Origin: a virus
IMG/VR virus record: IMGVR_UViG_3300045988_180636
Reading direction: 5' to 3' (one strand)
Length of the DNA stretch: 33,769 bases
Shown: positions 1-21,584 of the stretch, piece after piece
Position numbering within the stretch: position 1 is the first letter of the stretch
Layout of the letters: each line of letters starts with the position of its first letter
Position numbers and translations under genes: made by a program
The notes under the pieces: model-generated
What the model was told of the DNA's origin: nothing
Seen by the model: only the letters and a program-made list of their open reading frames with translations
The model's database searches: none

Positions 1-933
1 AATGCCACTACACAGAAAGAGATAGAAGAGTGTACGACAGAAATCGACAAAATTCTTATGAAGGAAGATATACACATGGTACGTCCGAACTTCACAAAAG
101 GTCTGAAGTCTAAGCCTAAGAAGAAAAAGAGACACTTTGAGAATGAAGCTGAATTAGAGTTGTACCGTCAGAAACAGATTCTTGCGTCACAGGAGCGTAG
201 GGAACTGGAAGAGAAGATATATTTACCATTGGAGTGTACCATGGATAAATTAGCGGATGTTATCAAGGCACACTTAGAGAGAGCCGACAGAACCAAAATG
301 ATAACATTCACGGATATATTGAACCGTATTCCAAAAGGAATTAAAGCGGATTACAACCGTATTGAAGCCATTAAGAAAGTCGGCATTGAAGGTAATAATG
401 AACTGAATAAGATTTATTCTAAGTATGCTAATGGAGATATTACCTATGATGAAATGTACGAACAGAAGCAGAATACAATTCAAAATATCCTGAATAAGAT
501 TCGATACACCGACATTGACGCTGAAATCGAAAGAAAAATTACAACATGGGATATTCAGAAGTTGATCCGTGATGTTTACGATATACACCCACGCAAGGAC
601 AAACACGGTAAATTTGTCAGGGATGAAAAGACAGGTAAAGGCATTATGGACGATAAGAGAGATAAGAGACTTGTCGGAGATAGAAAGAAACAGTGTGTCG
701 GTCAGAAGTTATTACAGTGGATATATGAAGTTTATCCAAAAGAATTTATTGCAGCTATAAGACAGAACAAAGGTACAGTTACGGAACTGGAAGAGGTTAC
801 ACCAGAAAATGAGACAAGTTCCAAAACTTCAATCAATAGTCTTAAAGACCTGAATAAATGGTTGGAAGATGATGGAGAGATATACGAACTGTACGGCAAG
901 AAATATAGAATTAAGACAAAAAGTAAACAGTAA
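1..933 (+). CDS. C-terminal part of the YonO/RdRP-like single-subunit RNA polymerase; continues from 31084..33769 across the circular junction (nt 1-55 duplicate 33715-33769)
   Basis: Frame of 31084.. runs to 33769 with one nt left over. Position 33769 equals position 55, so the codon c-tt is completed at 56-57 and continues in frame with the listed ORF 58..933, with stop TAA at 931-933. Confidence 0.7.
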   Translation, partial: NATTQKEIEECTTEIDKILMKEDIHMVRPNFTKGLKSKPKKKKRHFENEAELELYRQKQILASQERRELEEKIYLPLECTMDKLADVIKAHLERADRTKMITFTDILNRIPKGIKADYNRIEAIKKVGIEGNNELNKIYSKYANGDITYDEMYEQKQNTIQNILNKIRYTDIDAEIERKITTWDIQKLIRDVYDIHPRKDKHGKFVRDEKTGKGIMDDKRDKRLVGDRKKQCVGQKLLQWIYEVYPKEFIAAIRQNKGTVTELEEVTPENETSSKTSINSLKDLNKWLEDDGEIYELYGKKYRIKTKSKQ

Positions 934-1392: not shown

Positions 1393-1973
1393 ATCGGTAT
1401 CATTATCATGTGGAAAGAAGTCTTGTATTAGACAGAAGAATCCACAGGATATAGATATAAATATGGTCTGATATATTTCAGACTTCTTCAAATTTTTCAT
1501 TGTGTTTGATGTCCTCTTTTCTGACATCCGCAAGGGTGTTTATTAAAACAATCAAACATGATCGCTTAGATTTGTATAAATCTTTGCATGGTTAAACATT
1601 AAGTTTTTTTACTTGTATTGAACCATACTATTGTGTGCTTTGTACAAAATTGAAAAACGTAAGTATGCGGAACTTTAGTTCAGTGTATTTAATTGACTAA
1701 CCATTATTTAGTTCAAATTGTACTAACATTTTTGAATTTATGCACTAAATATGTAGATATTTTTCTTCATTATTTAGCAAACAGGTTTTTGGTGGGTTTC
1801 CTGACCTCCTTTCTTAAAACTTATTGAAAGAACTCACCCTTTATTGATTATGATACGTCTGATTGGACGTTACATATATATTATTTGTGCGAACGAAAAA
1901 AATAAAATTATGGGTTCGGTGTATGCAACGATTTAGGGGCATGAATCGAAAACAGGAAATGGAGAGAATTATT

Positions 1974-2564
1974 ATGGACACAAATACAAATACAGAAGTA
2001 AATGTAGATACACAGGGTAAAGATGGGGTAACAACACCAGAAGTTGATACAACTACCAATACTACGAATGTAAATACAGAAGAGACAGTTACAATGTCTA
2101 AGACAGATTATGACCGTGCTATCCAGAGTGCAGAGGATCGAGTGAGAGGTAAACTGTCGAAAGAAATCAAGGAACTTCAGGCGAAAGTTCAGGAGTTATC
2201 CCCTGTGGAGAAAACACAGGAACAGATCGACCTTGAAAAGCGTATCGCTAAACTGGAAGAGTCCGAAAAGGAAGTTGCAGCTAGAGAGAAGAGACTTGCA
2301 TTTCAGGAAAATTTATCGAATAAGGGTATTGATAAATCACTGTTCAATTATTTAAAAGATGATACTGACGTGGACGCACTATCAAATGTCATTGACGAGA
2401 TTGTGAAAGCAAGAATGAAGTCAAATGGATATGTGCCGACTAATCATTCTTCAGATGATTCAGTGTCACAGGAAGAGTTTGATAAAATGTCATACGATAA
2501 GCGTGTGGAGATTTATCAGAAGAATCCAACTTTATATGAAAAATTGACGAAAAGATCAAGATAA
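1974..2564 (+). CDS. Capsid scaffolding protein (DUF4355-like, coiled coil)
   Basis: In-frame ATG at 1974 with RBS GGAGAG; the upstream extension to 1863 has no RBS. T/N-rich N-terminus, then a charged coiled coil (KEIKELQAKVQEL..., LEKRIAKLEESEKE). It lies immediately upstream of the capsid gene. Confidence 0.65.
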   Translation: MDTNTNTEVNVDTQGKDGVTTPEVDTTTNTTNVNTEETVTMSKTDYDRAIQSAEDRVRGKLSKEIKELQAKVQELSPVEKTQEQIDLEKRIAKLEESEKEVAAREKRLAFQENLSNKGIDKSLFNYLKDDTDVDALSNVIDEIVKARMKSNGYVPTNHSSDDSVSQEEFDKMSYDKRVEIYQKNPTLYEKLTKRSR

Positions 2565-2655: not shown

Positions 2656-3492
2656 ATGAGCTTAGTTATTGGTTCAGTATATGCAGACGCAGTAAATAGT
2701 AAGCTGGGTACTGCTCTTAAAATGAAAGATATTGCCACAGATTATACAGATATGGTATCTGATATTCTTGTATATGGTAATGAGGTTCACTTCCCAACAT
2801 TTAATCGTCTTTCAGACGCAGAGGAAGTAACAAAGGGTACTGCTCTTGTACCAGAGGAAGTAGGTATGAGTGATAGCACTGCAAAGGTAAAGCAGACTGG
2901 TAAATCTGTTCGTATCTATGATAAGGATAAGGCACAGATCAAAGGTGCAGTTGTAGACGCTATGGCAAGCCAGACCGCAGAAGTTATGGCAAAGAAGATT
3001 GATTCTGACCTTATTTCAGAAATGGTAGATAATGCCGTTTATAAGACTGCATTACCAGGCGAACTTACAGTTACCGCTATTGATAGTGCATTTGATGTAT
3101 TCGGAGATCAGGTTCAGAACTCTAGCTTTTCTGGTATCGTGGCACACGGTAAGTTCAGAAGTGCAATTATGAGAATGGATGAATTTACAAAGATTGATAA
3201 GACATATGCTACTACTGGAAACGGCATTGTAGATGATAATAATTGCATTGGTTTCTGGAATGGTACAATCCCTGTATATCTTTCAGATCAGATGTGGGAC
3301 GCTACAAACAGTGAGCCGATTATGGCAGTTGTTAAGACAGGTGCTATCGGTTACATCATGCAGAAGGAAACTACTGTAGAGGAAGAGAGAGAAGCTAAGT
3401 TACTTGCAACAGACCTTGTAGCAAGCAACCTTTATGCAGTTAAACTCTTAGATACTAAGGGTGTATCTATCTTAAAGAAGACTATTGCCTAA
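2656..3492 (+). CDS. Major capsid protein (small HK97-fold type, N4-gp56-like family)
   Basis: 278 aa with strong RBS GAGGAA. It follows the scaffold gene. The sequence pattern (VYADAVNSKLG..., G.EVHFPTF, KSVRIYDKDKAQ) resembles the roughly 280-aa capsid proteins paired with DUF4355 scaffolds in Firmicutes phages. Confidence 0.7.
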   Translation: MSLVIGSVYADAVNSKLGTALKMKDIATDYTDMVSDILVYGNEVHFPTFNRLSDAEEVTKGTALVPEEVGMSDSTAKVKQTGKSVRIYDKDKAQIKGAVVDAMASQTAEVMAKKIDSDLISEMVDNAVYKTALPGELTVTAIDSAFDVFGDQVQNSSFSGIVAHGKFRSAIMRMDEFTKIDKTYATTGNGIVDDNNCIGFWNGTIPVYLSDQMWDATNSEPIMAVVKTGAIGYIMQKETTVEEEREAKLLATDLVASNLYAVKLLDTKGVSILKKTIA

Positions 3493-3629
3493 GAGCAAAT
3501 GGATAATCTCATAGACTTTCATAGTCTGTGATTTTTTCATATATCAGGGGTGTGATGTTGTATCACATGGTATGATGTTGCACCCCTACTCTTTAAGGCA
3601 ATTTTTATTTTAACGAAAGGACAGTATAA

Positions 3630-3983
3630 ATGCTAAGACCTAGTGATTTAAAAGAATATAGACTATTAAGAGGTCTGTCGCAGAGGGATGTTGCTATGTA
3701 CTGTGATATTACTTCACAGTTAATTGGAGACATTGAACTAGGACAGAGAAATCTTACAGAGTATAATTATCAGGAAATCGTGAAGGGTATCAATGCAGCG
3801 TCACAGGCGAAAGCCAGAGGAACATTTGAAGCTGATAAAAAGCGTCTTATGAAAACTGAAAACGATTATGAGAAAAATCGTCAGAAAGAAAAACGTGCAG
3901 CCGAAAAAGCAAAGACTACTACTACACGAAAGAAAACTACTACGAAACCAACCGCCAGTAAGAAGGTTTCAGATTCAAAATAA
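3630..3983 (+). CDS. XRE-family HTH protein with a K/T-rich basic tail
   Basis: LRGLSQRDVAMYCDITSQLIGDIELGQRN is an HTH_3-type motif. RBS GAAAGGA. Confidence 0.6.
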   Translation: MLRPSDLKEYRLLRGLSQRDVAMYCDITSQLIGDIELGQRNLTEYNYQEIVKGINAASQAKARGTFEADKKRLMKTENDYEKNRQKEKRAAEKAKTTTTRKKTTTKPTASKKVSDSK

Positions 3984-4020
3984 AGGGGGTTACAGTGTTT
4001 CGTATTAGAAAAAATTGTAA

Positions 4021-4869
4021 TTGTGGGTACTTACAAAGTACCGAAACACGATTACAACAATGTATAAATTTGATGAAAAAGAAAGTCATATCAAACAAGA
4101 TTTATTGAACAAATTTCCTGAATGGTATAAGGATTTGAATAAGGAAGATTACTATTTAGTTCTCACAGATGATTGTGATTCCTTATTCAGTTGCAAGAGA
4201 TTAAATACACTCTTCGGTTTAGAAATAGGCGGTTTTTATGATTTTAGAAGCGGTCTATGGTTGAATGAAGAGAAAACAGATTCAGGGTGGAAAACACCTA
4301 TCTTTGTTGACCTGTCGGTAGGTCAGGATAAATTATGTTTTGATAATCACAGAACATTTCTGAAGAACCCTAACAGGGTTAATCCGAACAATATTCCAAA
4401 AGCAAGATTTAATGAAAAATATAACTTCGGTACGATTACACTTGTGTCCGCTTTATATGGCGGTGTGGATCGTATGAATGAAGAGTTGAGAACAATGTTA
4501 CTTGCCGTTGATGGTGGCTTTATCGGTTACTACAACAAAGGCGGTAAATATTCTCATATCAATCTGTACTGGTTGGAGAAGTTAGGTCTGACAGAGTACC
4601 TTGTACCGATTCTTGAAAAGCACGATATGAAATACTTTCAGGATTTTTCGGTAGAGAATGGCTTGTATGACAAGATAACTATTACACCAGACGGATATTT
4701 AGACACACCGACTTATCGTGTACCAGAATATCAATTTGAATTGGTGCAACCGATACAGAAAGTCTTTGCGTCAAAGTATGAAGTGACGCAACGTATCAAA
4801 AGGAATGAAAAAATAATTGTAAGTGCAGAGACATACGAAAATGAGTATGTTTTGAATATCGCAGTATAG
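4021..4869 (+). CDS. Hypothetical protein (start uncertain: TTG 4021 or ATG 4060)
   Basis: Long ORF with protein-like composition and no motif I can name. An in-frame TAA at 4018 limits the N-terminus. Confidence 0.55.
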   Translation: MWVLTKYRNTITTMYKFDEKESHIKQDLLNKFPEWYKDLNKEDYYLVLTDDCDSLFSCKRLNTLFGLEIGGFYDFRSGLWLNEEKTDSGWKTPIFVDLSVGQDKLCFDNHRTFLKNPNRVNPNNIPKARFNEKYNFGTITLVSALYGGVDRMNEELRTMLLAVDGGFIGYYNKGGKYSHINLYWLEKLGLTEYLVPILEKHDMKYFQDFSVENGLYDKITITPDGYLDTPTYRVPEYQFELVQPIQKVFASKYEVTQRIKRNEKIIVSAETYENEYVLNIAV

Positions 4870-4906
4870 ATAGCGAAATTTATAGGATTAAAAGGAGAAT
4901 TTTATA

Positions 4907-5146
4907 ATGACAAGAGAAGAATATGTAATTTTCAGAGACGAAGTTTTAATGAAGAGATTTTACTGGTGTTATTCAATCGCAGAGAGAAAGTACCTCACAG
5001 AAAAAGGTTACAAGTACCTTTTCAGATGTACCCACTATAAGTCTGATAAATTCTTTTGGGTGTTCGATAAGACAGATGATCTTATGAATGATGTAAAAAT
5101 CTGGAAAGACGAACACAAAAAGAAAGTGAGTGAAGCGGTTGAGTGA
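4907..5146 (+). CDS. Hypothetical small protein
   Basis: 79 aa with RBS AAAGGAGAA 8 nt upstream. Confidence 0.6.
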   Translation: MTREEYVIFRDEVLMKRFYWCYSIAERKYLTEKGYKYLFRCTHYKSDKFFWVFDKTDDLMNDVKIWKDEHKKKVSEAVE

Positions 5147-5402
5147 TAATCTCACACAGAAAGAGATTCAGGATCGGTACGGTCATGGATTATCTGAAGA
5201 TAAGATAGTGTCATTATATCCCTACGAAAAGGGAGAATTAAATATAGAAGAGTATAGCGGTCAGGATTATATGACAACGTATGATCTGTTGACCGCCTAT
5301 GCCCTTCGGCAAAAGTACCCTGTCATGGTATGGGGGAAGATAAGAAAAAATCACAGAGCATTTGTGTTCAAAAAGAAGAAGCCTGTCATGTTGGCTTTTT
5401 GA
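5130..5402 (+). CDS. Hypothetical protein (GTG start, overlaps the preceding stop)
   Basis: 90-aa ORF with a weak RBS. Its position in the operon is consistent with coupling. Confidence 0.4.
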   Translation: MKRLSDNLTQKEIQDRYGHGLSEDKIVSLYPYEKGELNIEEYSGQDYMTTYDLLTAYALRQKYPVMVWGKIRKNHRAFVFKKKKPVMLAF

Positions 5403-5424
5403 TTTATTGAACAATATTAAGTGA

Positions 5425-5727
5425 ATGAAAGGACAGTTTCATAAGTTGGAAAATAATAAAAGAAATAATAGAGAAAGCAGACCTAGATTCATGGGTTATG
5501 TTACAAACTGGAATAGCGAAAGAGGTTACGGATTTATCCGTTGTTATGATGATGGAGAATCTTATTATTGTAGCCAGAAGGTTATCAATGGAGAACCATA
5601 TTTAAGAAAAGGAACTATTGTCAGTGTGATGATTGGACACGGCAAAGACAGAGAAGGAAATCCGTCAACTTATGTTGCAGATTTACTTGTAGTTGAAGTG
5701 CCAGAAGAAAGACACACACGATACTAA
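5425..5727 (+). CDS. Divergent cold-shock-domain (OB-fold) protein
   Basis: GYVTNWNSERGYGFIRC...YYCSQKVI...LRKGTIVSV matches the CSD pattern G.V.WFn.e.GyGFI...vFvH.s.i...L.eGq.V. Confidence 0.5.
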   Translation: MKGQFHKLENNKRNNRESRPRFMGYVTNWNSERGYGFIRCYDDGESYYCSQKVINGEPYLRKGTIVSVMIGHGKDREGNPSTYVADLLVVEVPEERHTRY

Positions 5728-5745
5728 GGAAAGGTGGTGGATAAT

Positions 5746-5850
5746 ATGAAAATGACACACGTTCATATGGCTTGTGGTGGTAGCAATACTAAATTAAGTA
5801 ATAATGAAGCATTGAATAAGCTTGTGCAGATTTTAGCAGCTAAAAAATAA
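5746..5850 (+). CDS. 34-aa peptide ORF directly upstream of the radical SAM gene (candidate precursor or substrate peptide)
   Basis: ATG 5746 is preceded by GGAAAGGTGGTGG. Translation is MKMTHVHMACGGSNTKLSNNEALNKLVQILAAKK. Too short for the supplied ORF track. It ends 23 nt before the radical SAM start. Confidence 0.45.
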   Translation: MKMTHVHMACGGSNTKLSNNEALNKLVQILAAKK

Positions 5851-5873
5851 TTGATTAAAAGGAGTAAAAATAT

Positions 5874-6974
5874 ATGAAAAGAATCACATGGGATTTTCTA
5901 TCAGTTGAGTTGACAAGAAAATGTCAATTAAATTGCAAACATTGTTTTAGGGGTAAGTCACAGAATCTTACCATTTCAAAAGAGACTATAGATAAATTTC
6001 TTAGTCAAACAGAAATTATCGGTTATCTTCACTTTACTGGTGGAGAGCCGACATTAGCAATAGAGGAAATGCGATACTTTTTAGATTGCTTATATAAGTA
6101 TCGCATACCTCTTTTTCATCTTCAGATCATCACAAATGGATATACTAAATCAGAAGAATTTGTACAGGTGGTAAAAGATTATTCAGATATGATTAGATTG
6201 TGTTATATGGACGCTGAAGTAGATATGAAATATTATGTCACAATCGGAGTATCAGTTGATAGATACCATGTAGGTTATGATCCTAAAGAAGCACTTGAAT
6301 ACTATAAGGAAGAGTTAGAAGGATATGCAAAAGTTATTCCTATGACAGATGGCAATATTCCATTTAAAACAGGAAACGGAACAACACTTCTTGAAGCTAT
6401 TCCAGAAATTGATAAACAGGAATTAGATACAAGAATTGAAATTTTATCTAAGGATTTTAAACCTATGTGTCCGCAATATAAAACATATAAACTTTTACAT
6501 GATGAACAGGTATATGTTGTATGCGAAATGAGTTTATCTGCTAAAGGTAATGTAACACTATATAGAATTTGTTCAAATAATGATTATAAATTTGAGGATT
6601 TAGCAAACCAGAATGTATGTAATGTATATGAAACAGATTCAATATACGATTCTATTATTGAATATAACAAGGGTAAAAAATCTTGTTTGGAGAAAATGAG
6701 AGAAGAAAAGATACGGACTAAAGAAAGAGAAAATGATTCAAAATATAAGGCAAAATTATTTAGAAGTATCTGGAATTATATAAAAGTTGTAGGAGATAAT
6801 GCAGCTACGGAAGATATAGTTACATTACTTGCGGATAAAAAGATTACTGATCCTGTAGAGGACGCAGATCAGAGATTGGACGGAAATCTTATACAGATTA
6901 GTGATATTGAACCTGAAAGCATTGTTGACATTATGAAAGATGTTGAAAATTTTGAATATGGAAAAGAGGAATAA
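5874..6974 (+). CDS. Radical SAM enzyme (paralog 1, 366 aa)
   Basis: Canonical CX3CX2C cluster motif in LTRKCQLNCKHCFRG, followed by the GGEP SAM-binding motif (HFTGGEPTL) and ITNG. RBS AAAGGAG. Confidence 0.8.
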   Translation: MKRITWDFLSVELTRKCQLNCKHCFRGKSQNLTISKETIDKFLSQTEIIGYLHFTGGEPTLAIEEMRYFLDCLYKYRIPLFHLQIITNGYTKSEEFVQVVKDYSDMIRLCYMDAEVDMKYYVTIGVSVDRYHVGYDPKEALEYYKEELEGYAKVIPMTDGNIPFKTGNGTTLLEAIPEIDKQELDTRIEILSKDFKPMCPQYKTYKLLHDEQVYVVCEMSLSAKGNVTLYRICSNNDYKFEDLANQNVCNVYETDSIYDSIIEYNKGKKSCLEKMREEKIRTKERENDSKYKAKLFRSIWNYIKVVGDNAATEDIVTLLADKKITDPVEDADQRLDGNLIQISDIEPESIVDIMKDVENFEYGKEE

Positions 6975-6975
6975 T

Positions 6976-7341
6976 ATGGAAAATTTAGATTTTAGAAAAC
7001 CTGATATGGATAATCTTATACAGAAAAGTTATAGTGATTTTTGCAAAGAAAGATATGAGAATCATGTTTCTTTGATGAATAGAGTACATAAAAAAGTAAA
7101 TGAAAGTATGGAAAATGTAAGGTCACGATTCCGTGTAGAAGTGATTGAGCGATATATGGAATGGTTAGAAGGATGGTTTACAAGTATAAATGAACAAGAA
7201 TCAGATATTGTACTTATGACATTCGGAGATACATTAAGAACTGCAAGAGACTATATGAATGGTAAAGGTGAGCTTGTAGAGAAAAATACGGAAATTTTAT
7301 CGAAGATGATTGAAGAAAAATCAAAGGAGTATGATTATTGA
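6976..7341 (+). CDS. Hypothetical helical protein in the radical SAM cassette
   Basis: Internal ATG 6976 with RBS AAGAGGA, 2 nt after the upstream stop. 121 aa, acidic and helical in composition. Confidence 0.55.
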   Translation: MENLDFRKPDMDNLIQKSYSDFCKERYENHVSLMNRVHKKVNESMENVRSRFRVEVIERYMEWLEGWFTSINEQESDIVLMTFGDTLRTARDYMNGKGELVEKNTEILSKMIEEKSKEYDY

Positions 7342-7865
7342 TGAAAGAGATATTTAATAAAAAAGATTTACAGTTTTTAGGAAAAGCATTTAAGAATCCT
7401 GAATTTGCAAAAGCGTTTATTGTATCAATGATGAAGGATGAAGATTATCAGGAACTAAAAGATTTATATACAAAACTTGATAAAAAGGATATTGAAATTG
7501 AAAATAATCTTAACAATATAATTCTTGCTTCAAAATTAGAAGAACCGGCTGTTACACCAGAAGAGAGAGTACGACAAAATTCTGAAAAGTTAGGTGTACT
7601 GTTTGGAGAATTGTTAGGAAAAATTATTACAGGAAAAAGTATGGGTACTTCATTAAAAGATTATGAAAATCGTGTACCTGTATTACTTCAGGAAAGAGCA
7701 GCTATTATAGATGAAATTAGTACATTATATGATAGTTACAAGGAAGCCTACAACAAAGAAATCAATAGTCAGGAAACAAGAGATATGTTGCTTATGGCTT
7801 TTGGTAAAAAAGATGGAGATATGGAAGGAGAACTTTTAGAATGGATAATGAGACTCCAAAAATAG
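7338..7865 (+). CDS. Hypothetical helical protein in the radical SAM cassette
   Basis: ATGA-type overlap with the preceding stop. 175 aa. Confidence 0.55.
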   Translation: MMKEIFNKKDLQFLGKAFKNPEFAKAFIVSMMKDEDYQELKDLYTKLDKKDIEIENNLNNIILASKLEEPAVTPEERVRQNSEKLGVLFGELLGKIITGKSMGTSLKDYENRVPVLLQERAAIIDEISTLYDSYKEAYNKEINSQETRDMLLMAFGKKDGDMEGELLEWIMRLQK

Positions 7866-8368
7866 CAATGACTTCTATTTATCTTGAAATCACAAGACAG
7901 TGCAACCTTCAGTGTAAGCACTGTCTCCGTGGTGATCCACAGAATATGAGTATGAGCAATAATCAGATAGATAGAATATTAGATAATTTTAATTGGATAG
8001 ACAAGGTTTTTATTGGTGGTGGCGAACCATTTCTTGCTAAAGATTCTATATCCCATTTGTTATCAGAATTAAAAAACAAAATTGAAAAAGGAAAATTTGT
8101 GTGTAGGTGTGTAGGACTTATTACAAACGGTACACAAAGAGACAAGGAAGTGATTACACTTCTAAATGAAATGGGAAAATATCTTAGTGATAAATGGTAT
8201 AAAGAAGATACAAAAACTATTAGCATAGGAATTTCAAAAGATGAATTTCACGATAACAATAGTGAAAATGCTATGGAATGGTTTAAATCTGAATGTGACG
8301 AAAGATATATTAGTTTACATTTTAATGAATTAGATATAGATAAAAGAACAAAAAAAACCAATAATTGA
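7841..8368 (+). CDS. Radical SAM enzyme paralog 2, N-terminal core only (ends just after an A8 tract)
   Basis: ITRQCNLQCKHCLRG (CX3CX2C), FIGGGEPFL and ITNG, collinear with the first 175 aa of 5874..6974. RBS GGAAGGAGAA. Confidence 0.75.
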   Translation: MDNETPKIAMTSIYLEITRQCNLQCKHCLRGDPQNMSMSNNQIDRILDNFNWIDKVFIGGGEPFLAKDSISHLLSELKNKIEKGKFVCRCVGLITNGTQRDKEVITLLNEMGKYLSDKWYKEDTKTISIGISKDEFHDNNSENAMEWFKSECDERYISLHFNELDIDKRTKKTNN

Positions 8369-8438
8369 AGAGTGCGAAAGAGCAATAAAAAATAACTTAC
8401 AGTATAGTAAAAGATATGGAATATCAGAACTTCATAGG

Positions 8439-8897
8439 GTGGAGTTATACAAAAATACTTTATTCAAGTTTAATAAAAATGATCCAAACGAAGAACCCAA
8501 AATTTTATATGATGGAGATTGTTTAGCTTTTACTTGTACAGATTTATTTCTAAAAGGTGGTTTCTATGGATATGCAGAAATTGACAAACCTGATTATCCT
8601 TTTATTCTTGGAAATTATATGAAAGAATCTGTGTTTGATATGATAATAAATTGGAATACATTACATCCACTTTTAGAACAACAGGCTATAATTTATGAAA
8701 ATTTAGTAAAACGTGGAATGACACAGAAGGATAAAGAAAAACATATAATAAGATTCCATGAAAAGGAAGATGAAGTGCGAAAACAATTATCAGAAAATAA
8801 GGACAACAGGGATGTATGGGATATTTACAAAGAAGTATTTCATTATGATTTTGCACCAGAAGAAATACAGGAAATAAAGAATTTTAGAAAGCAGTGA
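8439..8897 (+). CDS. C-terminal half of radical SAM paralog 2 (separate frame; this frame is open from 8340)
   Basis: KILYDGDCLAFTCTDLFLKGGFYGY and GNYMKESVFDMIINWN align with KLLHDEQVYVVCEMSLSAKGNVTLY and CNVYETDSIYDSIIEYN of paralog 1. The listed GTG start has no RBS. Confidence 0.6.
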   Translation: MELYKNTLFKFNKNDPNEEPKILYDGDCLAFTCTDLFLKGGFYGYAEIDKPDYPFILGNYMKESVFDMIINWNTLHPLLEQQAIIYENLVKRGMTQKDKEKHIIRFHEKEDEVRKQLSENKDNRDVWDIYKEVFHYDFAPEEIQEIKNFRKQ

Positions 8898-8901
8898 TAT
8901 T

Positions 8902-9390
8902 ATGGCAAAAACAAATAGAAAGCCTAATGGTAGTAGTGTCTCTTCGGAGACTTCTATATACCAGACTTTAAAAGGAATGATAAATACTGACACTAAGGTT
9001 TACTATGTGATGTGGAAGTTTTGTCCTGAATATCTGAAGGATAATGAAGCTGATCCGATATTGACATTTGAGGATTTGAAAAGCCGTTATGCAGTATTCA
9101 GTGATAAGATCACAGAGAAAACTTGTGAGAAGTATATGTTGGAGCAAGGTGTACAGGACGCTATCAAGTGGTTACTGAAACGCTTGCACCAGAAGAAACA
9201 AATTGAATTATATAATGCTTATTATCAGAAAGCGTTGTCAGGAGACGTACAGGCTTTCAAAGCATTTGAAGATTTTAGTGAGAAGTTCTTTGCAGCGAAT
9301 AAAGAAAACGGTCTTGTAAGTTTATTGAATAATGTATCTGAAGATGATTTAGAAGATAGTGAGGACTATTCCTATACCTATAAAGAGTGA
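8902..9390 (+). CDS. Putative small terminase subunit
   Basis: 162 aa, lying upstream of the large terminase. Basic N-terminus and a helical C-terminal region (YNAYYQKALSGDVQAFKAFEDF), as in Firmicutes-phage TerS proteins. The call rests on position and composition only. Confidence 0.4.
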   Translation: MAKTNRKPNGSSVSSETSIYQTLKGMINTDTKVYYVMWKFCPEYLKDNEADPILTFEDLKSRYAVFSDKITEKTCEKYMLEQGVQDAIKWLLKRLHQKKQIELYNAYYQKALSGDVQAFKAFEDFSEKFFAANKENGLVSLLNNVSEDDLEDSEDYSYTYKE

Positions 9391-9553
9391 TACAAGTAAA
9401 CCATTATACGAATATTTATATACCAAACATAAAAAATTCGGATTCACAGAAAAACAAGACTTGGAAATATTAAAAAAATTATATCCTGACGCACGGAATA
9501 TCAAAGTGATATACAGTGTCAGGGGAGAATCACATTTTGTAATAACAAATTGA
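9359..9553 (+). CDS. Hypothetical small protein (GTG start, overlaps the 8902..9390 end)
   Basis: 64-aa ORF with protein-like sequence and no clear RBS. Confidence 0.3.
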   Translation: MRTIPIPIKSDTSKPLYEYLYTKHKKFGFTEKQDLEILKKLYPDARNIKVIYSVRGESHFVITN

Positions 9554-9593
9554 GGTTGTATGAGTAAAATCATGCAGCCTTTTTTATTTTTTT
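9554..9593 (+). terminator. Strong intrinsic terminator just upstream of the large terminase gene
   Basis: 10-bp stem GGTTGTATGA / TCATGCAGCC (two G-U pairs) followed by TTTTTTATTTTTTT. Confidence 0.7.
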
Positions 9594-9607: not shown

Positions 9608-11170
9608 ATGACAAGAGAAGATAAGTTAAGAAAGATTGTCGCTGATCCTGTCCTGTGGTGTCGCTATTTTTGTAACATTGTAGATAAGACAGGTAAGAAA
9701 GTAAGATTTGAGCCGACCTACCACCAGAAGGTACTTGCTAAGAACTTCGGCAAATTTAATATCGTGGCTAAGTCAAGACAGCTTGGTATAACTTCATGGG
9801 CGATAGCGTACTCACTTTATCTTACCCACACACAACCAGATACCGTATGTATGTTAATGTCCTATTCACTGGACACGGTAGACATTGTATTTAAGAAATT
9901 GAAAGCTATGTATGATGATCTTGATCCGTCTGTCAAATTAGCTGATGTGGCGAACAACAGGAAAGAACTCATACTTGAAAATAGAAGTCGTATCGTTTGT
10001 TGTGTATGCGGTACAAAGGACGCTGCCAGAGGTTCAACCTTGCGGTACGTTCATTTAACAGAAGTAGCCTTCATGGATGATACTAAGCTGAAGAATCAGT
10101 TAGTTGCTATCGAAGCTGCATTGCGTCCTGATGGACAGATCGTACTTGAATCAACCTCAAATGGAATGAATTACTGGTTTGAGTTGTGGCAAAAGGCGGT
10201 TCATGGAGAGAGCCAGTATATACCTTTTTTCTTTTCATGGCTAGACGATAAGAGACAGTTCATTCAAGAATACGAACAGAATACAGAAATCTATTTCAAT
10301 CGACACGGTAAGTATCTGGAAGTGGAAGAGTTGGACGAAGAAGAATTATCCCTGTACTACAAAATGGGTGCAGAGAAAAACCCACTTGCTATGAAGAAAC
10401 TTATGTGGCGAAGAATGAAGATAGCAAATATCGGACTTGACAAATTTAGACAGGAATATCCAACAACGGCTACAGAATCATTCCTTGTATCAGGAAACAA
10501 TGTCTTTGATTTAGAGAAGATTCAAGCCAGAATGAACGGTCTTTATGATACAAAGCCACTATCACAGGTTGGAATGAAGTTACCGCCACTTATGAGAAAG
10601 TGGAGAAAAGATTGGTCTATGTGGAGACAACCGAAGCCGAACGAAAGATTTTACGGTGGAGTGGACACAGGAGAGGGAATTTCTTCAGATAACAGTGTCA
10701 TTCAGATTGTAGATAAGAACGGCATACAGTGCTTTGAATTTGCGTCCAACAAGATAAAGCCGTATGAATTTGCGGACTTGGTGCGTGAAGTCGGAGACTA
10801 TTACAATACCGCTTTATTGGTAGTAGAGAAGTTATCCGCAGGACACACGGTTGTAGATAAGCTATACGATAGCGGACATAGATACTTGCGTCTGTACAAA
10901 TATAAAGAGTATGACGCTAAAGGTAAGGCAAGGAAAAAGCCTGGATTCCAGACTTCATTAAAGAGCCGACCTATTATCATAAACCGATTTGTAGAAATGT
11001 TTGAAACTGGACAGATATTATTGAACAGTAAAGCACTATTAGATGAAATGAAATCATTCCAATTAGACGATAACGGAAAGCAACAGGCGGTACAGGGTGC
11101 AAAGGATGATAGGGTTATGGCTTTTGCTATGGCATTGGAAGGACTTGTCAACGGTGTGTGGTACATATAA
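9608..11170 (+). CDS. terL: Terminase large subunit
   Basis: 520 aa. Walker-A-like VAKSRQLGITSW, then an acidic Walker-B region. C-terminal RNaseH-like nuclease signatures (YGGVDTGEG..., GAKDDRVMAFAMA). Located next to the portal gene. Confidence 0.8.
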   Translation: MTREDKLRKIVADPVLWCRYFCNIVDKTGKKVRFEPTYHQKVLAKNFGKFNIVAKSRQLGITSWAIAYSLYLTHTQPDTVCMLMSYSLDTVDIVFKKLKAMYDDLDPSVKLADVANNRKELILENRSRIVCCVCGTKDAARGSTLRYVHLTEVAFMDDTKLKNQLVAIEAALRPDGQIVLESTSNGMNYWFELWQKAVHGESQYIPFFFSWLDDKRQFIQEYEQNTEIYFNRHGKYLEVEELDEEELSLYYKMGAEKNPLAMKKLMWRRMKIANIGLDKFRQEYPTTATESFLVSGNNVFDLEKIQARMNGLYDTKPLSQVGMKLPPLMRKWRKDWSMWRQPKPNERFYGGVDTGEGISSDNSVIQIVDKNGIQCFEFASNKIKPYEFADLVREVGDYYNTALLVVEKLSAGHTVVDKLYDSGHRYLRLYKYKEYDAKGKARKKPGFQTSLKSRPIIINRFVEMFETGQILLNSKALLDEMKSFQLDDNGKQQAVQGAKDDRVMAFAMALEGLVNGVWYI

Positions 11171-11209: not shown

Positions 11210-11458
11210 ATGGAGTATGCAGAGTATAAAAAGATACTTGATAAAGGCTTGATTGATTATGTGAATAGTGGCGGTAGCACCTTTTATATGGGAAGTGCTA
11301 CGAAAGAGTATGTGTTTTCCTATGAGAATGAGCAAGACGCTGCCGACCACAAGAAACATTTATCTGATAAAGCCGTACAAGCTATCTTGAAAAAAGAGAC
11401 ATTACCGAAAGGTATTAGATTAGAAAAGTGCATATTGCACGGAAAGGATTGTAAATGA
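11210..11458 (+). CDS. Hypothetical small protein between terminase and portal
   Basis: ATG 11210 with RBS GAAAGGAA (alternative ATG at 11195). Its stop overlaps the portal ATG (ATGA). Confidence 0.5.
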   Translation: MEYAEYKKILDKGLIDYVNSGGSTFYMGSATKEYVFSYENEQDAADHKKHLSDKAVQAILKKETLPKGIRLEKCILHGKDCK

Positions 11459-12876
11459 AAAATCCTATAGAAGCGATTAAGAATTTTTTCGGAAAGGGAA
11501 CAAGCATGAATACAGAAAAAACGAACTGGTTCAAGGATGAAATCGGCAAGACACGATATAAGGATCGTATCAGTAGAGTAACCGATATTGACGATTATTT
11601 ACGAAGAGAACATAAAGTTTTACAGATTCCATCGTTTGAATTTAAGGAACACACATTTGAGCCTACAAGATTGGTATTGCAGACGCTTAAATCTATTATC
11701 AAATTTCATTCAAGCTATGTGTGTGGTAGTCCTGTAAGTATTACAGGCGATAAGGAATTTGTATCTTTATTGAACAACATTTATAAGAAAGGTGGGTACA
11801 CGAAAACCGACCTTGAAATTGCAAAAGACCTGATTACATATGGAGATACATTCGAGTATGTATATCTGGACGAAAATAATAATATCAGGTCAAAGATTAT
11901 CCGTAACAAGGATTCATACCCATTGTATGATTCTTTCGGAAACTACACCCACTTTGTAGAGTATTGGAAGGATGAAGATACAAGAAAAGATCATTACATT
12001 GTATATTATCCTGATAAGGTAGAAATCTATGAGGGCAGTAAGTTAGTAGATACAAAAGTAAATCTTACTGGTTTACCTATCTGGTACAGTGCTATGGATA
12101 AATCAAAATATGATAAGTTCGGTGATCCATTCCCATTAGATTTAATTGGTATCATGGACACAATCGAAGCATTGTTATCAAAACTTGATACAGCCGTTAC
12201 AACACTGTCATTATCCCCTCTTGGTGTAGTGTCAGGTCAGAGAATGGATTCGGCTATTCCTACTAATATTGTGGGTACTGTAATGAATCTGGAAGATGGA
12301 GCAACCTTTAACTGGGCGAACGCTCAAATGGACAGAGAGAGTATTAAACTGGAATTAGATTATGTAATTCAACAGTTTTATGCAATCGCCTGTGTTCCAG
12401 CTTCGATTATGGGGCAGTCGAATGTAGCCAATGTGTCAGAGACTTCTATTACAATGCTTTACCAACAGTGTGATAACTTTGCACGTCAGTATATCGCAAG
12501 CATGAAAGAAGGATTTGAACAGAGACTTGCATATATTAGAAAGCTGATGGAGTACAATCATCAAACTGTATCTGATGAAGTATTCGACAGTATCAACTTC
12601 TCATTCAATGTGGCAAGACCTGTAGATAATGCAGCCGATATGGAAAATATGCAGATTCAGTATAATTGCGGTGCTATCAGTAAACAGACTATCATTGACA
12701 GAAGCCCATATACAACAGATACGGCACTGGAATTAAAGCGTATTGAAGATGAGGCGAACGGTACAACCGATAATCCGACAGAAGTACCAACAGATAATCC
12801 GACAGAGGATGATCCACAGGAAGTTGTGACAAGTACCAAAACTGAAGAAACTGTTTTAGATGATAAGGTTGATTAG
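11455..12876 (+). CDS. Portal protein (SPP1 gp6-like size and organisation)
   Basis: 473 aa immediately after the terminase. Acidic, T/P-rich C-terminal tail. General similarity to Firmicutes siphophage and podophage portals, judged by eye. Confidence 0.7.
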   Translation: MKNPIEAIKNFFGKGTSMNTEKTNWFKDEIGKTRYKDRISRVTDIDDYLRREHKVLQIPSFEFKEHTFEPTRLVLQTLKSIIKFHSSYVCGSPVSITGDKEFVSLLNNIYKKGGYTKTDLEIAKDLITYGDTFEYVYLDENNNIRSKIIRNKDSYPLYDSFGNYTHFVEYWKDEDTRKDHYIVYYPDKVEIYEGSKLVDTKVNLTGLPIWYSAMDKSKYDKFGDPFPLDLIGIMDTIEALLSKLDTAVTTLSLSPLGVVSGQRMDSAIPTNIVGTVMNLEDGATFNWANAQMDRESIKLELDYVIQQFYAIACVPASIMGQSNVANVSETSITMLYQQCDNFARQYIASMKEGFEQRLAYIRKLMEYNHQTVSDEVFDSINFSFNVARPVDNAADMENMQIQYNCGAISKQTIIDRSPYTTDTALELKRIEDEANGTTDNPTEVPTDNPTEDDPQEVVTSTKTEETVLDDKVD

Positions 12877-13408: not shown

Positions 13409-13414
13409 TATATA

Positions 13415-15822: not shown

Positions 15823-16521
15823 CTATTCGGCTGCGGTTTCCTGTTCTTCCTTCAGTTCACGTTTGTACTTATAGAATGTGTTTCGTGCAAGTCCTGTCAG
15901 CTTCATACAATCAGAATCTTTCAGAGTACCGCCAAAATCAACGGAATGTTTTAATATTTCCGCTTTTTTCTCTATACTCTTCTTTGTTGTGAGCGTCTTT
16001 CCTTTAATACCGCCTATCTGTTTACCGTTGAGCCTTGCCGTTTCAATGCCTTCTTTAGTTCTCTGGTGCAGATCGTCAACCTCTTTTTGAGCCTGTTCAA
16101 AAGCTAATTGTATTTGCTCTTTCGCAAGTGCAAGCAAAAATTTGTTTACACCTTCCAGAATATAATCAGCGTTAGTTCCTGTCATGGCTACACTTCCAGA
16201 AATCGCCTTTTTATAGGTATCTGTGTTTATATGTGGCTCTTTCAGAAATACAAGCGTTATACCTCTATTAAATAGTTCTTCATAGAGTGTATAACCTTCT
16301 TCAGCGTTTCTGGACATTCTGGAAACTGAATCAAATACAATAGTATCATTCGGCTTTATAGTCTTTATTATTTTGTCAAGTTCTTTCCTACCCTGAAATT
16401 TTGTACCTGTATATATTTCTTGCACTATATGAGCGTCAGGAAAAGCCGTTTTTATATTCCTGATCTGTCTTTCTATATTCTGCTTACTGGTACTTATTCG
16501 ACAATATCCGTAAATTGCCAT
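15823..16521 (-). CDS. Small serine recombinase (resolvase/invertase family)
   Basis: MAIYGYCRISTSKQ contains the catalytic-serine motif (Y.R.S). DSVSRMSRN follows. C-terminal HTH (LTGLARNTFYKYKRE). ATG 16521 with RBS AAAGGACGG; the listed upstream extension lacks an RBS. Confidence 0.8.
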   Translation of the reverse strand: MAIYGYCRISTSKQNIERQIRNIKTAFPDAHIVQEIYTGTKFQGRKELDKIIKTIKPNDTIVFDSVSRMSRNAEEGYTLYEELFNRGITLVFLKEPHINTDTYKKAISGSVAMTGTNADYILEGVNKFLLALAKEQIQLAFEQAQKEVDDLHQRTKEGIETARLNGKQIGGIKGKTLTTKKSIEKKAEILKHSVDFGGTLKDSDCMKLTGLARNTFYKYKRELKEEQETAAE

Positions 16522-16565
16522 ATATAACACCGTCCTTTCTGTCGCAATACTAACGACCGTTGAAA

Positions 16566-16646
16566 TTGATACTAAAATAATACCATCCGAACAACCGTTT
16601 GTCAATAACTTTTGATACTAAATGTTGATAGGTTCGTTTTGATACT
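16566..16646. repeat. Four TTGATA(C/G) repeats upstream of the recombinase gene (candidate res/operator subsites)
   Basis: TTGATACT at 16566, 16612 and 16639; TTGATAGG at 16625. Confidence 0.5.
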
Positions 16647-17208: not shown

Positions 17209-17721
17209 ATGATGAAAATTTATTTGACAAACTTAGGAAAGTACAACGAAGGTCAGTTAGTCGGTGAATGGGTAGAGTTACCAGTGAGCAACGAAGAACT
17301 TCAGGAAGTATTTAAAAGAATCGGAATCAATGAAGAATACGAAGAGTATTTCATAACTGATTATGAGTGTGACTTTTACGAAGTCGGAGAGTATGAGAAC
17401 TTAGACACATTAAACGACATAGCGGAACGGATCGAAGAACTGGACGAAGAAGAAAGCAAGGTTGTAAAGGCTTTAATGTCGGAGTTAGGTTATACACTGG
17501 ATGAAGCTATAGACAAGGTAAACAATGGCGATTATAGAATATATAGCGATTGTGACAACATGACAGATATAGCATATCAGGTTGTAGAAGAATGTGGGTA
17601 TTTGAATAATGTACCTGACAATGTGGCTAGATACTTTGATTATGAATCATTCGGTAGGGATTTAGGTATTGAAGGAAATTATATCTTTACAGATGATAAC
17701 GAAGCTATAGAGGTTTACTAA
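17209..17721 (+). CDS. ardA: Antirestriction protein ArdA (DNA mimic)
   Basis: IYLTNLGKYNEGQLVGEWVELP...EEYFITDYE...GEYENL matches the ArdA family signature. Very acidic, 170 aa. Confidence 0.75.
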   Translation: MMKIYLTNLGKYNEGQLVGEWVELPVSNEELQEVFKRIGINEEYEEYFITDYECDFYEVGEYENLDTLNDIAERIEELDEEESKVVKALMSELGYTLDEAIDKVNNGDYRIYSDCDNMTDIAYQVVEECGYLNNVPDNVARYFDYESFGRDLGIEGNYIFTDDNEAIEVY

Positions 17722-21564: not shown

Positions 21565-21584
21565 TTTGAAAGGAGATTTTGCAC

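What the first reader, a model, noticed from the sequence alone, without database searches (positions are those of the whole stretch)
5746..8897. Twin radical-SAM cassette with a 34-codon upstream peptide ORF in a phage-like element
Two paralogous radical SAM enzymes are present (5874..6974, and 7841..8368 plus 8439..8897). Both carry CX3CX2C, GGEP and ITNG motifs. They bracket two uncharacterised helical proteins (6976..7341 and 7338..7865). The cassette is preceded by a short ORF with a strong RBS (5746..5850, MKMTHVHMACGGSNTKLSNNEALNKLVQILAAKK). The arrangement of a small peptide followed by radical SAM genes and accessory proteins is that of RiPP maturation clusters. However, neither enzyme shows the compact SPASM CX2CX5CX3C auxiliary-cluster motif, and the peptide has a single Cys, so the chemistry is not predictable. 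None of the known phage radical SAM roles fits the gene context: QueE has no queC/queD partners here, and NrdG has no nrdD.
Basis: partly seen in the sequence, partly recalled or inferred. Interest (0 to 1): 0.65.

Follow-up and report, generated by a model that had tools for sequence, protein, structure and literature searches.

The report
Conserved Cys-peptide plus radical SAM module
A 34-codon gene encoding a peptide with one invariant cysteine sits directly upstream of an uncharacterised radical SAM enzyme, and this pair recurs on gut-bacterial phages and other mobile elements, so it is probably a new peptide-modifying system whose chemistry and biological role are still unknown.

Summary

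- **The split in rSAM2:** it is a one-base change in a homopolymer, A8 at 8350-8357. A 98%-identical IMG/VR contig has A7 and an intact 351-aa gene.
the peptide ORF is conserved. It lies about 25 nt upstream of rSAM1 homologues down to about 32-38% identity, with one invariant Cys and a C-terminal amphipathic helix (core LSNNEALNxI). The motif codons vary mainly synonymously. All 11 loci recovered from the peptide motif alone carry the enzyme.
- **rSAM1:** it has four (near-)invariant extra Cys, which suggests a twitch-like single auxiliary cluster. It reaches no curated family cut-off. Its closest folds are only weakly similar: EpeE/YydG, CteB, anSME, SkfB and viperins.
- **What is conserved:** only the peptide+rSAM1 pair. 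rSAM2 is optional and lacks the four Cys. The two accessory proteins are lineage-specific orphans.
- **Mobility:** an Anaerobutyricum hallii integrative island shares the peptide, rSAM1 and both accessory proteins with the window, but not rSAM2 and nothing else.
- **Against a simple RiPP reading:** sister phages carry a fused rSAM with no peptide, and no locus has a recognition element (RRE), protease or exporter.

Best reading: a new mobile-element-borne, RiPP-like Cys-peptide modification module. The chemistry is unknown.

The parts
5746..5850 (+). Small peptide gene, 34 aa: MKMTHVHMACGGSNTKLSNNEALNKLVQILAAKK. The invariant Cys10 is at 5773-5775. An alternative start, Met8 at 5767, matches the 25-aa A. 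hallii form. The C-terminal part reads as an amphipathic helix (judged by eye from the sequence).
   Evidence: ORF and ribosome-binding site. Homologous peptides lie upstream of rSAM1 homologues. Invariant positions are C10, G11, S18, N20, E21, A22, L23, N24 and L30. Synonymous codon variation dominates in the motif. No Pfam, NCBIfam, PHROG or PADLOC family matches.
5874..6974 (+). rSAM1, 366 aa. Radical SAM core with CX3CX2C at residues 17-24. The C-terminal domain has four (near-)invariant Cys: C199 (6468-6470), C217, C249 and C271. This suggests a twitch-like single auxiliary Fe-S cluster. The helical tail from residue 272 to 366 is variable.
   Evidence: Pfam PF04055 39.8 bits against 29.5. 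Alignment A1 of 30 sequences. AlphaFold2 model with pLDDT 90. Foldseek matches to EpeE, CteB, SpeY, anSME, SkfB and viperins with TM 0.3-0.44. NF033640 'twitch domain' matches 28 of 30 members, all below its cut-off.
6976..7341 (+). Accessory protein h121, 121 aa, of unknown function. It is a lineage-specific orphan that travels with rSAM1 in the closer lineages.
   Evidence: ORF. It is 50% identical in the A. hallii island and about 21-29% in L007 and L010/L011. Only close relatives are found in 5.8 billion proteins. No family or PDB match.
7341..7865 (+). Accessory protein h175, 174-175 aa (ATG 7341, or TTG 7338), of unknown function.
   Evidence: ORF. It is 49% identical in the A. hallii island. 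Only 8 representative clusters match in 1.84 billion proteins. One hit, P0067 (277 aa), matches over residues 104-277; its N-terminal 103 aa were not compared with h121, so a fusion is only a guess from length. No family or PDB match.
7841..8897 (+). rSAM2, a paralogous radical SAM enzyme. In this window it is interrupted by a +1-nt change in a homopolymer; the intact form is 351 aa. It lacks the four auxiliary-cluster Cys of rSAM1 and is an optional component of the module.
   Evidence: Frames. Intact gene in the IMG/VR twin. P0051 and four further homologues. Alignment A2. A 40%-identical intact copy is in L007. AlphaFold2 model with pLDDT 75. Foldseek finds the same generic set of rSAM folds.
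8350..8357 (+). A8 homopolymer that splits rSAM2. The twin contig has A7.
5425..5727 (+). Cold-shock-domain-like protein of 100 aa. It is the conserved upstream neighbour in the phage versions but is absent from the A. hallii island. Whether it belongs to the module is uncertain.
   Evidence: Pfam CSD E 0.004, below cut-off. PADLOC CSD_V and a TPR-CSD model match weakly. Synteny in L007, L010, L053 and L062-66.
3509..9581 (+). Probable transcription unit holding the module. It is bounded by terminator-like hairpins at 3509-3531 (after the major capsid gene) and 9552-9581 (before the large terminase gene). Between them the scan lists only 5-pair '+'-strand hairpins at 4285-4299 and 8938-8951, and none between the peptide gene and rSAM1.
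   Evidence: consensus scan only

Best explanation
**What it is.** The functional unit is a two-gene pair, a 24-43-aa peptide followed about 25 nt later by rSAM1. The pair moves as cargo among phages, phage-like elements and integrative islands of gut Clostridia (Anaerobutyricum, Oscillospiraceae, Acutalibacter).

**Proposed mechanism (inferred).**
1. rSAM1 uses its CX3CX2C cluster and SAM to make a 5'-deoxyadenosyl radical.
2. With help from one auxiliary Fe-S cluster held by C199, C217, C249 and C271, it modifies the co-encoded peptide at or through its single invariant Cys.
3. The conserved C-terminal amphipathic helix (LSNNEALNxIxxxL) serves as the recognition ("follower") element. In some versions the Cys lies immediately after the start Met, so this is not an N-terminal leader.

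**Candidate chemistries (not resolved).**
- A Cys-to-carbon thioether to a downstream residue.
- Oxidation of Cys C-beta, as in formylglycine formation.
- Epimerisation.

**Other components.** In this window's lineage, h121, h175 and the cluster-less paralogue rSAM2 are add-on partners or tailoring factors.

**Where the product acts.** No protease or exporter accompanies the pair. The product therefore probably acts inside the cell, or is released at lysis, in conflict between the element and its host or between elements.

**Shown versus inferred.** Shown here: gene presence, conservation, co-occurrence, Cys patterns and fold class. Inferred: the peptide as substrate, cluster binding, the chemistry and the biological role.
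For: **Peptide conservation**
- Homologous peptides sit immediately upstream of rSAM1 homologues at 73%, 57%, 43% and 38% enzyme identity.
- Divergent single-Cys peptides with a C-terminal helix occur in still more distant loci: L016, L018-21, L023 and L038.

**Reverse test**
- Eleven loci were recovered from the peptide motif alone.
- All eight new ones carry rSAM1 about 25-30 nt downstream. The other three are contigs already known to carry it.

**Purifying selection**
- The motif has 82 synonymous against 22 non-synonymous codon differences.

**Modularity**
- The A. hallii island shares only the stretch from the peptide gene to h175 with the window.
- That island's enzyme, P0003, was seen on 448 contigs.

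**The enzyme**
- C199, C217 and C271 are invariant and C249 is near-invariant across 30 sequences, together with G225.
- The model is confident (pLDDT 90).
- Its best solved matches include the twitch/SPASM peptide maturases EpeE, CteB, anSME and SkfB.
- EpeE is a one-auxiliary-cluster 'extended twitch' peptide epimerase (PMC13012085).

**No characterised family fits**
- No curated family cut-off is reached.
- No literature hit for the peptide motif.
Against: - **No direct evidence of modification.**
- **No peptide-recognition domain found.** No RRE or PqqD-like domain was detected in rSAM1 (its tail is all-helical) or in h121 and h175.
- **No processing or export genes.** No leader protease, exporter or immunity gene appears in any locus.
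- **Peptide-less relatives.**
  - Sister phages have a 584-608-aa rSAM fusion at the same site with no peptide. It keeps the four Cys.
  - Several distant loci (L017, L024, L025) show no obvious peptide.
- **Weak and ambiguous fold matches.** TM is at most 0.44, and viperins score nearly as well as the peptide maturases.
- **Only one Cys.** This is atypical for sacti- and ranthipeptides.
Confidence: 0.58

Rival explanations
1. The small protein is not the substrate. It is a partner of rSAM1, such as a regulator, adaptor, inhibitor or antitoxin-like subunit. The real substrate is a nucleotide, a nucleic acid or a host or phage protein. This could resemble viperin chemistry, or serve as a defence or anti-defence activity.
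For: - Peptide-less 584-608-aa rSAM fusions occupy the same site in sister phages.
- Some distant homologues have no evident peptide.
- PADLOC pVip models and viperin structures match the core: E 8e-12 and TM about 0.35-0.45.
- No RRE, protease or exporter is present.
- The module sits near integrase or recombinase genes in several mobile elements, as defence or anti-defence cargo often does.
Against: - The viperin matches cover only the generic N-terminal 100 residues. The score is 37.8 bits against a cut-off of 180.
- Viperins have no auxiliary-cluster Cys set.
- An invariant Cys in a 24-43-aa peptide tightly coupled to an rSAM gene is the classical substrate signature.
- The top solved matches are peptide-bound maturases.
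Confidence: 0.27
2. The enzymes are ordinary members of a known phage rSAM role: QueE (7-deazaguanine), NrdG (activase of anaerobic ribonucleotide reductase), MoaA, or a DNA-hypermodification isomerase. On this view the short ORF is incidental.
For: - There are weak sub-threshold matches to QueE-like phrog_2076 (E 0.03 and 0.003).
- NrdG2 gives 22 bits and MoaA 21-32 bits.
Against: - All scores are far below the curated cut-offs of 131-325 bits.
- The matches are limited to the shared rSAM core.
- No queC/queD or nrdD was recognised among the window ORFs scanned.
- The short ORF is conserved and under purifying selection.
Confidence: 0.03
3. The module encodes a secreted bacteriocin-type RiPP, such as a sactipeptide, ranthipeptide or epipeptide, used to kill competitors. 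This is a narrower version of the best explanation, not a separate alternative, so its confidence overlaps with that one.
For: - The folds are nearest to EpeE, CteB and SkfB.
- The gene order is a peptide followed by an rSAM.
- Mobile-element carriage is common for bacteriocins.
Against: - There is no leader-plus-cleavage architecture. In some versions the Cys is residue 2-3.
- No peptidase, ABC exporter or immunity gene is present in any of the loci examined.
- The peptide has a single Cys.
- Family cut-offs are not met: PapB 35 against 340 bits, YydG 25 against 300, AlbA weak.
Confidence: 0.1

Closest known systems
EpeE/YydG radical SAM peptide epimerase (epipeptide system epeXEPAB, Bacillus subtilis)
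   Same: - It is the best solved-structure match (8ai1-8ai6, E 1.6e-7, TM 0.37-0.44).
- It has one rSAM cluster plus one auxiliary [4Fe-4S] cluster in an extended twitch domain (PMC13012085).
- It acts on a small co-encoded peptide.
- It is a Firmicute system.
   Different: - Sequence identity is only 12-15%.
- TIGR04078 matches only rSAM2, at 24.9 bits against a cut-off of 300. It was not listed for rSAM1, and it is not among the 25 families shown.
- The epe locus has a protease and an ABC exporter/immunity pair, and its precursor has an N-terminal leader. None of these is present here.
- EpeX is modified at Val/Ile rather than defined by a Cys.
Sacti- and ranthipeptide maturases (CteB/SCIFF, SkfB, PapB, AlbA)
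   Same: - They are rSAM enzymes that use a substrate Cys to form a thioether.
- SkfB has a twitch domain.
- CteB and SkfB are among the structural matches (5why, 6efn).
- The PapB model gives sub-threshold hits in 19 of 30 family members.
   Different: - These enzymes carry an N-terminal RRE and, except SkfB, a full SPASM domain with two auxiliary clusters.
- Their precursors have several Cys and an N-terminal leader.
- Here there is no RRE, no SPASM motif, a single Cys, and a core that is N-terminal or internal.
Anaerobic sulfatase-maturing enzyme (anSME)
   Same: - It oxidises one Cys (or Ser) in a peptide or protein to formylglycine.
- It is a structural match with the highest query TM (4k39, TMq 0.43).
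   Different: - anSME has a full SPASM domain with two auxiliary clusters.
- Its substrate motif is C/S-x-P/A-x-R. That motif is absent from the peptide, which has ACGGS.
- No sulfatase is nearby.
Prokaryotic viperins (pVip) and other nucleotide-modifying rSAM enzymes
   Same: - They share the rSAM core.
- PADLOC pVip matches at E 8e-12, and viperin structures are among the Foldseek hits.
- They occur in a mobile-element or defence-type context.
   Different: - The matches cover only the first 100 or so residues.
- NF038283 scores 37.8 bits against a cut-off of 180.
- Viperins have no auxiliary-cluster Cys and no partner peptide.
phrog_1802 and uncharacterised gut-phage rSAM proteins (for example A0A8S5SYJ5, Podoviridae sp. 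ctxqo3)
   Same: - These are the best viral matches: phrog_1802 at E 9.6e-14 and the BFVD hit at E 8.6e-20, TMq 0.59.
- They have the same kind of host environment.
   Different: They carry no functional annotation, only 'radical SAM domain-containing protein'. The profile is 556 positions long and resembles the long fused form (L053) rather than the split cassette.

Membership tests
Radical SAM superfamily (PF04055) | A CX3CX2C cluster motif with the SAM-binding GGE motif, and a Pfam score above the gathering threshold | tested here: met
   rSAM1 has C17/C21/C24, GGEP 56-59 and 39.8 bits against 29.5. rSAM2 scores 41.4 bits. All 30 family members hit PF04055.
SPASM-domain rSAM enzymes | A C-terminal seven-Cys motif (CX9-15GX4C ... 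CX2CX5CX3C ... C) binding two auxiliary clusters; Pfam PF13186 | tested here: not met
   There is no CX2CX5CX3C in either enzyme. PF13186 is hit by 0 of 30 members.
Twitch-domain rSAM enzymes (one auxiliary cluster) | A truncated SPASM-like C-terminal domain with conserved Cys that ligate a single auxiliary Fe-S cluster | tested here: inconclusive
   rSAM1 has C199, C217 (followed by x7 and G225) and C271 invariant, and C249 near-invariant. NF033640 matches 28 of 30 members but below its 170-bit cut-off. Twitch enzymes SpeY, SkfB and EpeE are among the fold matches. rSAM2 lacks these Cys.
RiPP biosynthetic system | A genetically encoded precursor peptide adjacent to, and co-conserved with, the modifying enzyme | tested here: met
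RiPP biosynthetic system | The peptide is demonstrably modified after translation | not testable with these tools
   This needs co-expression or reconstitution followed by mass spectrometry.
RiPP biosynthetic system | Leader/core architecture with a recognition element (RRE) and a leader protease or exporter. These are common but not universal. | tested here: not met
   No PqqD/RRE hit in rSAM1, h121 or h175. No peptidase or ABC transporter in the neighbourhoods. In several versions the Cys lies 1-2 residues after the start Met.
Sactipeptide / ranthipeptide maturases | Curated family models (PapB NF047865, AlbA NF012164, CcpM TIGR04068) and precursors with several Cys | tested here: not met
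   PapB scores 35 bits against 340 and CcpM 25 against 500. AlbA matches only 8 of 30 members, weakly. The peptide has one Cys.
YydG/EpeE epimerases | TIGR04078 above its cut-off, and an epeXEPAB-type locus | tested here: not met
   The score is 24.9 bits against 300. No protease or ABC genes are present. The structural match is only TM 0.37-0.44.
anSME | The substrate motif C/S-x-P/A-x-R and a full SPASM domain | tested here: not met
   The peptide core is ACGGS(N). There is no SPASM motif.
Viperin / pVip | NF038283 or TIGR04278 above the cut-off over the full length, including the C-terminal nucleotide-binding part | tested here: not met
   The score is 37.8 bits against 180, over residues 13-110 only. 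PADLOC pVip matches residues 11-110 only.
NrdG / QueE / MoaA | A curated equivalog model above its cut-off, together with partner genes (nrdD; queC/queD) | tested here: not met
   NrdG2 scores 22.5 bits against 131 and MoaA 21-33 against 231-325. QueE-like phrog_2076 matches at E 0.03 and 0.003. No partner genes were recognised among the ORFs scanned.

The most novel reading that the evidence does not exclude
This is a new class of mobile-element-borne radical-SAM-modified peptide. It has no leader: the core with the invariant Cys lies at or near the N-terminus, followed by a C-terminal recognition helix. A one-auxiliary-cluster enzyme installs a modification not seen before. The product works inside the infected or lysogenised cell as a weapon or shield in phage-host or element-element conflict, rather than as a secreted bacteriocin.
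Probability: 0.3. Interest if true: 0.8.

Novelty: new variant of a known kind. Interest (0 to 1): 0.6.

Why it matters
- **A gap in knowledge of phage enzymes.** Radical SAM enzymes on phages are mostly unexplained. Well-understood roles are few, for example QueE, NrdG and DNA-hypermodification enzymes.
- **A tractable system.** This is a two-gene pair with a sharp prediction: an rSAM1-dependent change at one invariant Cys. The pair is abundant in a cultivable human-gut commensal, A. hallii, where the enzyme was seen on 448 contigs.
- **If the peptide is modified,** this defines a new peptide/enzyme family with an unusual precursor layout. It would be a rare case of peptide maturation carried by phages and integrative islands, and it would give a handle on what such products do in gut phage-host ecology.
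- **If the peptide is not modified,** the tight pairing would point to a new kind of small-protein partner for an rSAM enzyme.

Tried and rejected
1. **Stop-codon recoding as the cause of the rSAM2 split.** Rejected. The two pieces are in different frames, and no alternative code lengthens the ORFs. The cause is A8 against A7.
2. **The peptide is fused to the C-terminus of the 584-608-aa rSAM in sister phages** (the stretch ...RLGCEATFSDEELKDAMERL...). Rejected. The peptide HMM score is -2.7 bits, and the Gly-Cys is Val-Arg in L041.
3. **The helical extension of that fusion, or the downstream proteins of L013, are diverged h121/h175.** There is no support. hhalign probability is below 1% and BLASTP finds nothing.
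4. **A structure model of h121 with locus-derived homologues.** Both AlphaFold2 jobs went to the enzymes.
5. **Nucleotide or protein matches in other collections.**
   - In deposited phages there was no DNA match and only one weak protein hit, on the unannotated record MT836406.1.
   - In plasmids there was none.
6. **Literature searches** for the peptide motif and for phage-encoded rSAM RiPPs found nothing relevant.
7. **Rfam on the whole window** gave no hits.
8. **Sequence search of h121, h175 and the peptide against the PDB** gave nothing significant.
9. **The resemblance of LSNNEALNxI to the double-glycine leader consensus LSxxELxxIxGG** (recalled from memory). The spacing differs, the helix is C-terminal with nothing after it, and no C39 peptidase or ABC transporter is present. 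It was not pursued.

Full report

- The short ORF (5746..5850) has GGAAAGGTGGTGG just upstream of its ATG. It encodes MKMTHVHMACGGSNTKLSNNEALNKLVQILAAKK, which has a single Cys.
- rSAM1 (5874..6974) and the second enzyme both pass the Pfam Radical_SAM threshold, at 39.8 and 41.4 bits against 29.5. Both carry the CX3CX2C, GGEP and ITNG motifs.
- The two enzymes are paralogues: 28% identity over 149 aa, E 2e-18.

The two pieces of the second enzyme are in different frames, and these overlap at an A8 run (8350-8357). Deleting one A fuses them into a 351-aa protein. A 98%-identical IMG/VR contig (UViG_3300045988_178362) has A7 there and an intact gene. An essentially identical intact protein stands for 31 public sequences. 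The split is therefore a one-base homopolymer error or variant. It is not recoding and not an old pseudogene.

**2. The decisive test: is the peptide conserved?**

rSAM1 has about 50 detectable relatives among 5.8 billion proteins. I fetched loci for relatives at decreasing identity. A homologous small ORF lies directly upstream of the enzyme, often uncalled by the original gene finders.

| Locus | Enzyme identity | Peptide |
|---|---|---|
| A. hallii island | 73% | MACGGSNLSNNEALNVIANHLGSRK |
| L036 | 73% | MKKNRVYMSCGGSNLSNNEALNVIANHLGSRK |
| L007 | 57% | ...KKVRFGCGGGNVRLSNNEALNLIVNHLGIKH |
| L010 | 43% | ...KKVHFACGGSETRMSNNEALNAIVNHLGIKK |
| L064 | 43% | ...VRFSCSGSNARMSNNEALNAIVNHLGIRK |
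| L013 | 38% | ...VRFGCGDETMSNNEALNVIANKLKGN |
| L015 | 38% | MLKPFSRCGDSPSNQLSDNEALNVIAYALTHQS |

More distant loci have divergent peptides that keep one Cys followed by small residues and a C-terminal amphipathic helix. Examples are L016, L018, L019, L020, L021, L023 and L038.

- **Invariant positions:** within the SNNEALN group these are C10, G11, S18, N20, E21, A22, L23, N24 and L30. L064 shows that even the Gly after Cys can change, which leaves the Cys as the constant core residue.
- **Codon variation:** codons of the 8-residue motif differ mostly synonymously, 82 against 22 in pairwise counts. The frame is therefore under protein-level selection.
- **Reverse test:** searching metagenome and viral collections with the peptide motif alone returned 11 confirmed loci. 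All eight new ones have rSAM1 starting 25-30 nt downstream. The other three are contigs already known to carry it.

**3. What is the conserved unit?**

It is not the "twin cassette".
- **rSAM2 is optional.** It is intact in L007 (321 aa, 40% identical). It is absent from the A. hallii island and from L010-L012.
- **h121 and h175 follow rSAM1 only in the closer lineages.** They are 50% and 49% identical in A. hallii and 21-29% or undetectable in L007 and L010.
- **Both accessory proteins are near-orphans.**
  - h175 has 8 representative clusters in 1.84 billion proteins.
  - One of them (277 aa) matches h175 over its residues 104-277. Its length would suit an h121+h175 fusion, but its N-terminal part was not compared with h121.
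  - h121 has only close relatives.
- **No homologue appears next to more distant enzymes**.
- **Other distant loci pair rSAM1 with a different second rSAM,** of 420 aa in L013 and 436 aa in L015.

A translated comparison shows that the A. hallii island shares only the stretch from the peptide gene to h175 with the window. That island is otherwise an HTH / Xis / integrase element with a 1089-aa protein that hits Pfam RdRP. The module therefore moves horizontally as cargo. Other carriers are prophage-like or integrative elements with recombinases, toxin-antitoxin genes and SPbeta-type genes (YonV_C, YomW). They occur in Oscillospiraceae, Clostridia MAGs and Acutalibacter intestini.

**4. The enzymes**

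*rSAM1.*
- Alignment of 30 family members shows, beyond the core motifs, invariant C199, C217, G225 and C271 and near-invariant C249. That is the right number of Cys for one auxiliary Fe-S cluster.
- There is no CX2CX5CX3C motif, and no member hits Pfam SPASM.
- The most widely matched NCBIfam model is 'twitch domain-containing radical SAM protein'. It matches 28 of 30 members, always below its cut-off.
- No curated family is reached: scores are 20-40 bits against cut-offs of 130-650.
- The AlphaFold2 model is confident (pLDDT 90).
- Its best solved matches are EpeE/YydG (E 1.6e-7), CteB, the twitch dehydrogenase SpeY, anSME (TMq 0.43), SkfB and viperins. All have TM at most 0.44.
- The best viral match is an unannotated gut-phage rSAM, at E 8.6e-20 and TMq 0.59.
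- EpeE is a one-auxiliary-cluster 'extended twitch' peptide epimerase (PMC13012085).

*rSAM2.*
- Its relatives do not keep the four Cys; only one C-terminal Cys is conserved.
- Its model has pLDDT 75 and matches the same generic set of folds.

**5. Points against a simple RiPP reading**

- No RRE-like domain was found. The rSAM1 tail is all-helical, and h121 and h175 have no family or PDB match.
- No protease, exporter or immunity gene is in any locus.
- Sister phages with conserved flanks have a single 584-608-aa rSAM-plus-helical fusion at this site, directly after the cold-shock-domain gene. It has no upstream peptide, yet it keeps the four Cys. An apparent peptide-like C-terminus in that fusion is not significant and not conserved.
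- A few distant loci show no evident peptide.

**6. Mechanism**

Most likely (about 0.58), rSAM1 modifies the co-encoded peptide at or through its invariant Cys and recognises the C-terminal helix. The chemistry is open: thioether, C-beta oxidation or epimerisation. In this lineage rSAM2, h121 and h175 are add-ons.

The main rival (about 0.27) is that the small protein is a partner rather than a substrate, and that the enzyme acts on something else. The known phage roles (QueE, NrdG, MoaA, viperin) fail their membership tests.

**7. Context in the window**

- The window is a closed circle of about 33.7 kb, with a 55-nt terminal repeat.
- The module lies in a unit bounded by terminator-like hairpins at 3509-3531 and 9552-9581. 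On one side are the scaffold and major capsid genes. On the other are the large terminase and portal genes.
- No Rfam family and no tRNA was found.

**8. Verdict**

The real entity is a mobile Cys-peptide plus single-auxiliary-cluster rSAM pair. It is undescribed in the libraries and literature searched. It is a new variant of the rSAM peptide-maturation theme, and both its chemistry and its role are unknown.

Noticed in passing
window 1-55 and 33715-33769; ORF 31048..33769 joined to 1..933: The first and last 55 nt are identical, so the window is a closed circle of about 33.7 kb. An ORF of about 1198 aa spans the junction. It matches only phrog_8308, of unknown function, and L007 and L010 carry 1198-1202-aa genes at the same position.
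   Followed up: partly
window, whole; genes at 1863..2564, 2656..3492, 9608..11170, 11455..12876, 15823..16605(-), 17209..17721, 21579..22355, 29940..31064: Only head and packaging genes were recognised: scaffold, major capsid, large terminase and SPP1-type portal. Others recognised are a ParA-like partition protein, a serine recombinase/invertase, an anti-restriction protein (phrog_2059) and a topoisomerase/Toprim-like protein. No tail or lysis gene was recognised among the ORFs scanned. The element could be a phage-plasmid or a capsid-forming satellite rather than a complete tailed phage.
   Followed up: partly
window 13400-17000: This stretch has no long '+' strand ORF. The motif TTATCCCCT recurs on the '+' strand, which is AGGGGATAA on the '-' strand and looks like a ribosome-binding site. 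This suggests a leftward block of small genes. No alternative genetic code lengthens the ORFs.
   Followed up: partly
window 18752-18922: There are three copies of a 23-nt direct repeat (ACAGGkTTATATATTG...), spaced 103 and 45 nt apart. They look like operators or iterons, and they lie about 2.7 kb upstream of the ParA-like gene (21579..22355).
   Followed up: no
L003-L006 (Anaerobutyricum hallii contigs), about 1942-5211: The island that carries the same module encodes a 1089-aa protein hitting Pfam RdRP (PF05183). In L003 it is interrupted by an IS (rve/HTH transposase genes). By memory this recalls the YonO-type single-subunit RNA polymerase of SPbeta; that was not tested. BLASTP found no similarity to the window's 1198-aa protein.
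   Followed up: partly
L039-L043, L049, L053 (for example L053 5929/6001..7755): Sister phages have the same flanking genes but replace the whole cassette with one 584-608-aa rSAM-plus-helical fusion, without an upstream peptide. phrog_1802 (556 positions) probably represents this long form.
   Followed up: yes
L007 10842..11954 and L009 7477..8589: An IS605-family OrfB/TnpB gene (Cas12f1-like TNB domain) is inserted between the cassette region and the large terminase gene in a related phage.
   Followed up: no
L022 691..894: A distant rSAM1 homologue is preceded by a 67-aa ORF with a ribosome-binding site. It ends ...YGYGCYDKKQ and has a single Cys near the C-terminus. [quoted passage not shown]
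   Followed up: no
P0008 (283 aa) and P0067 (277 aa), public proteins: Two rearranged forms exist. P0008 joins the N-terminal part of rSAM1 to the last 64 residues of h175, which looks like a deletion variant. P0067 matches h175 over its residues 104-277; its N-terminal 103 aa were not compared, so an h121+h175 fusion is only a guess from length.
   Followed up: no
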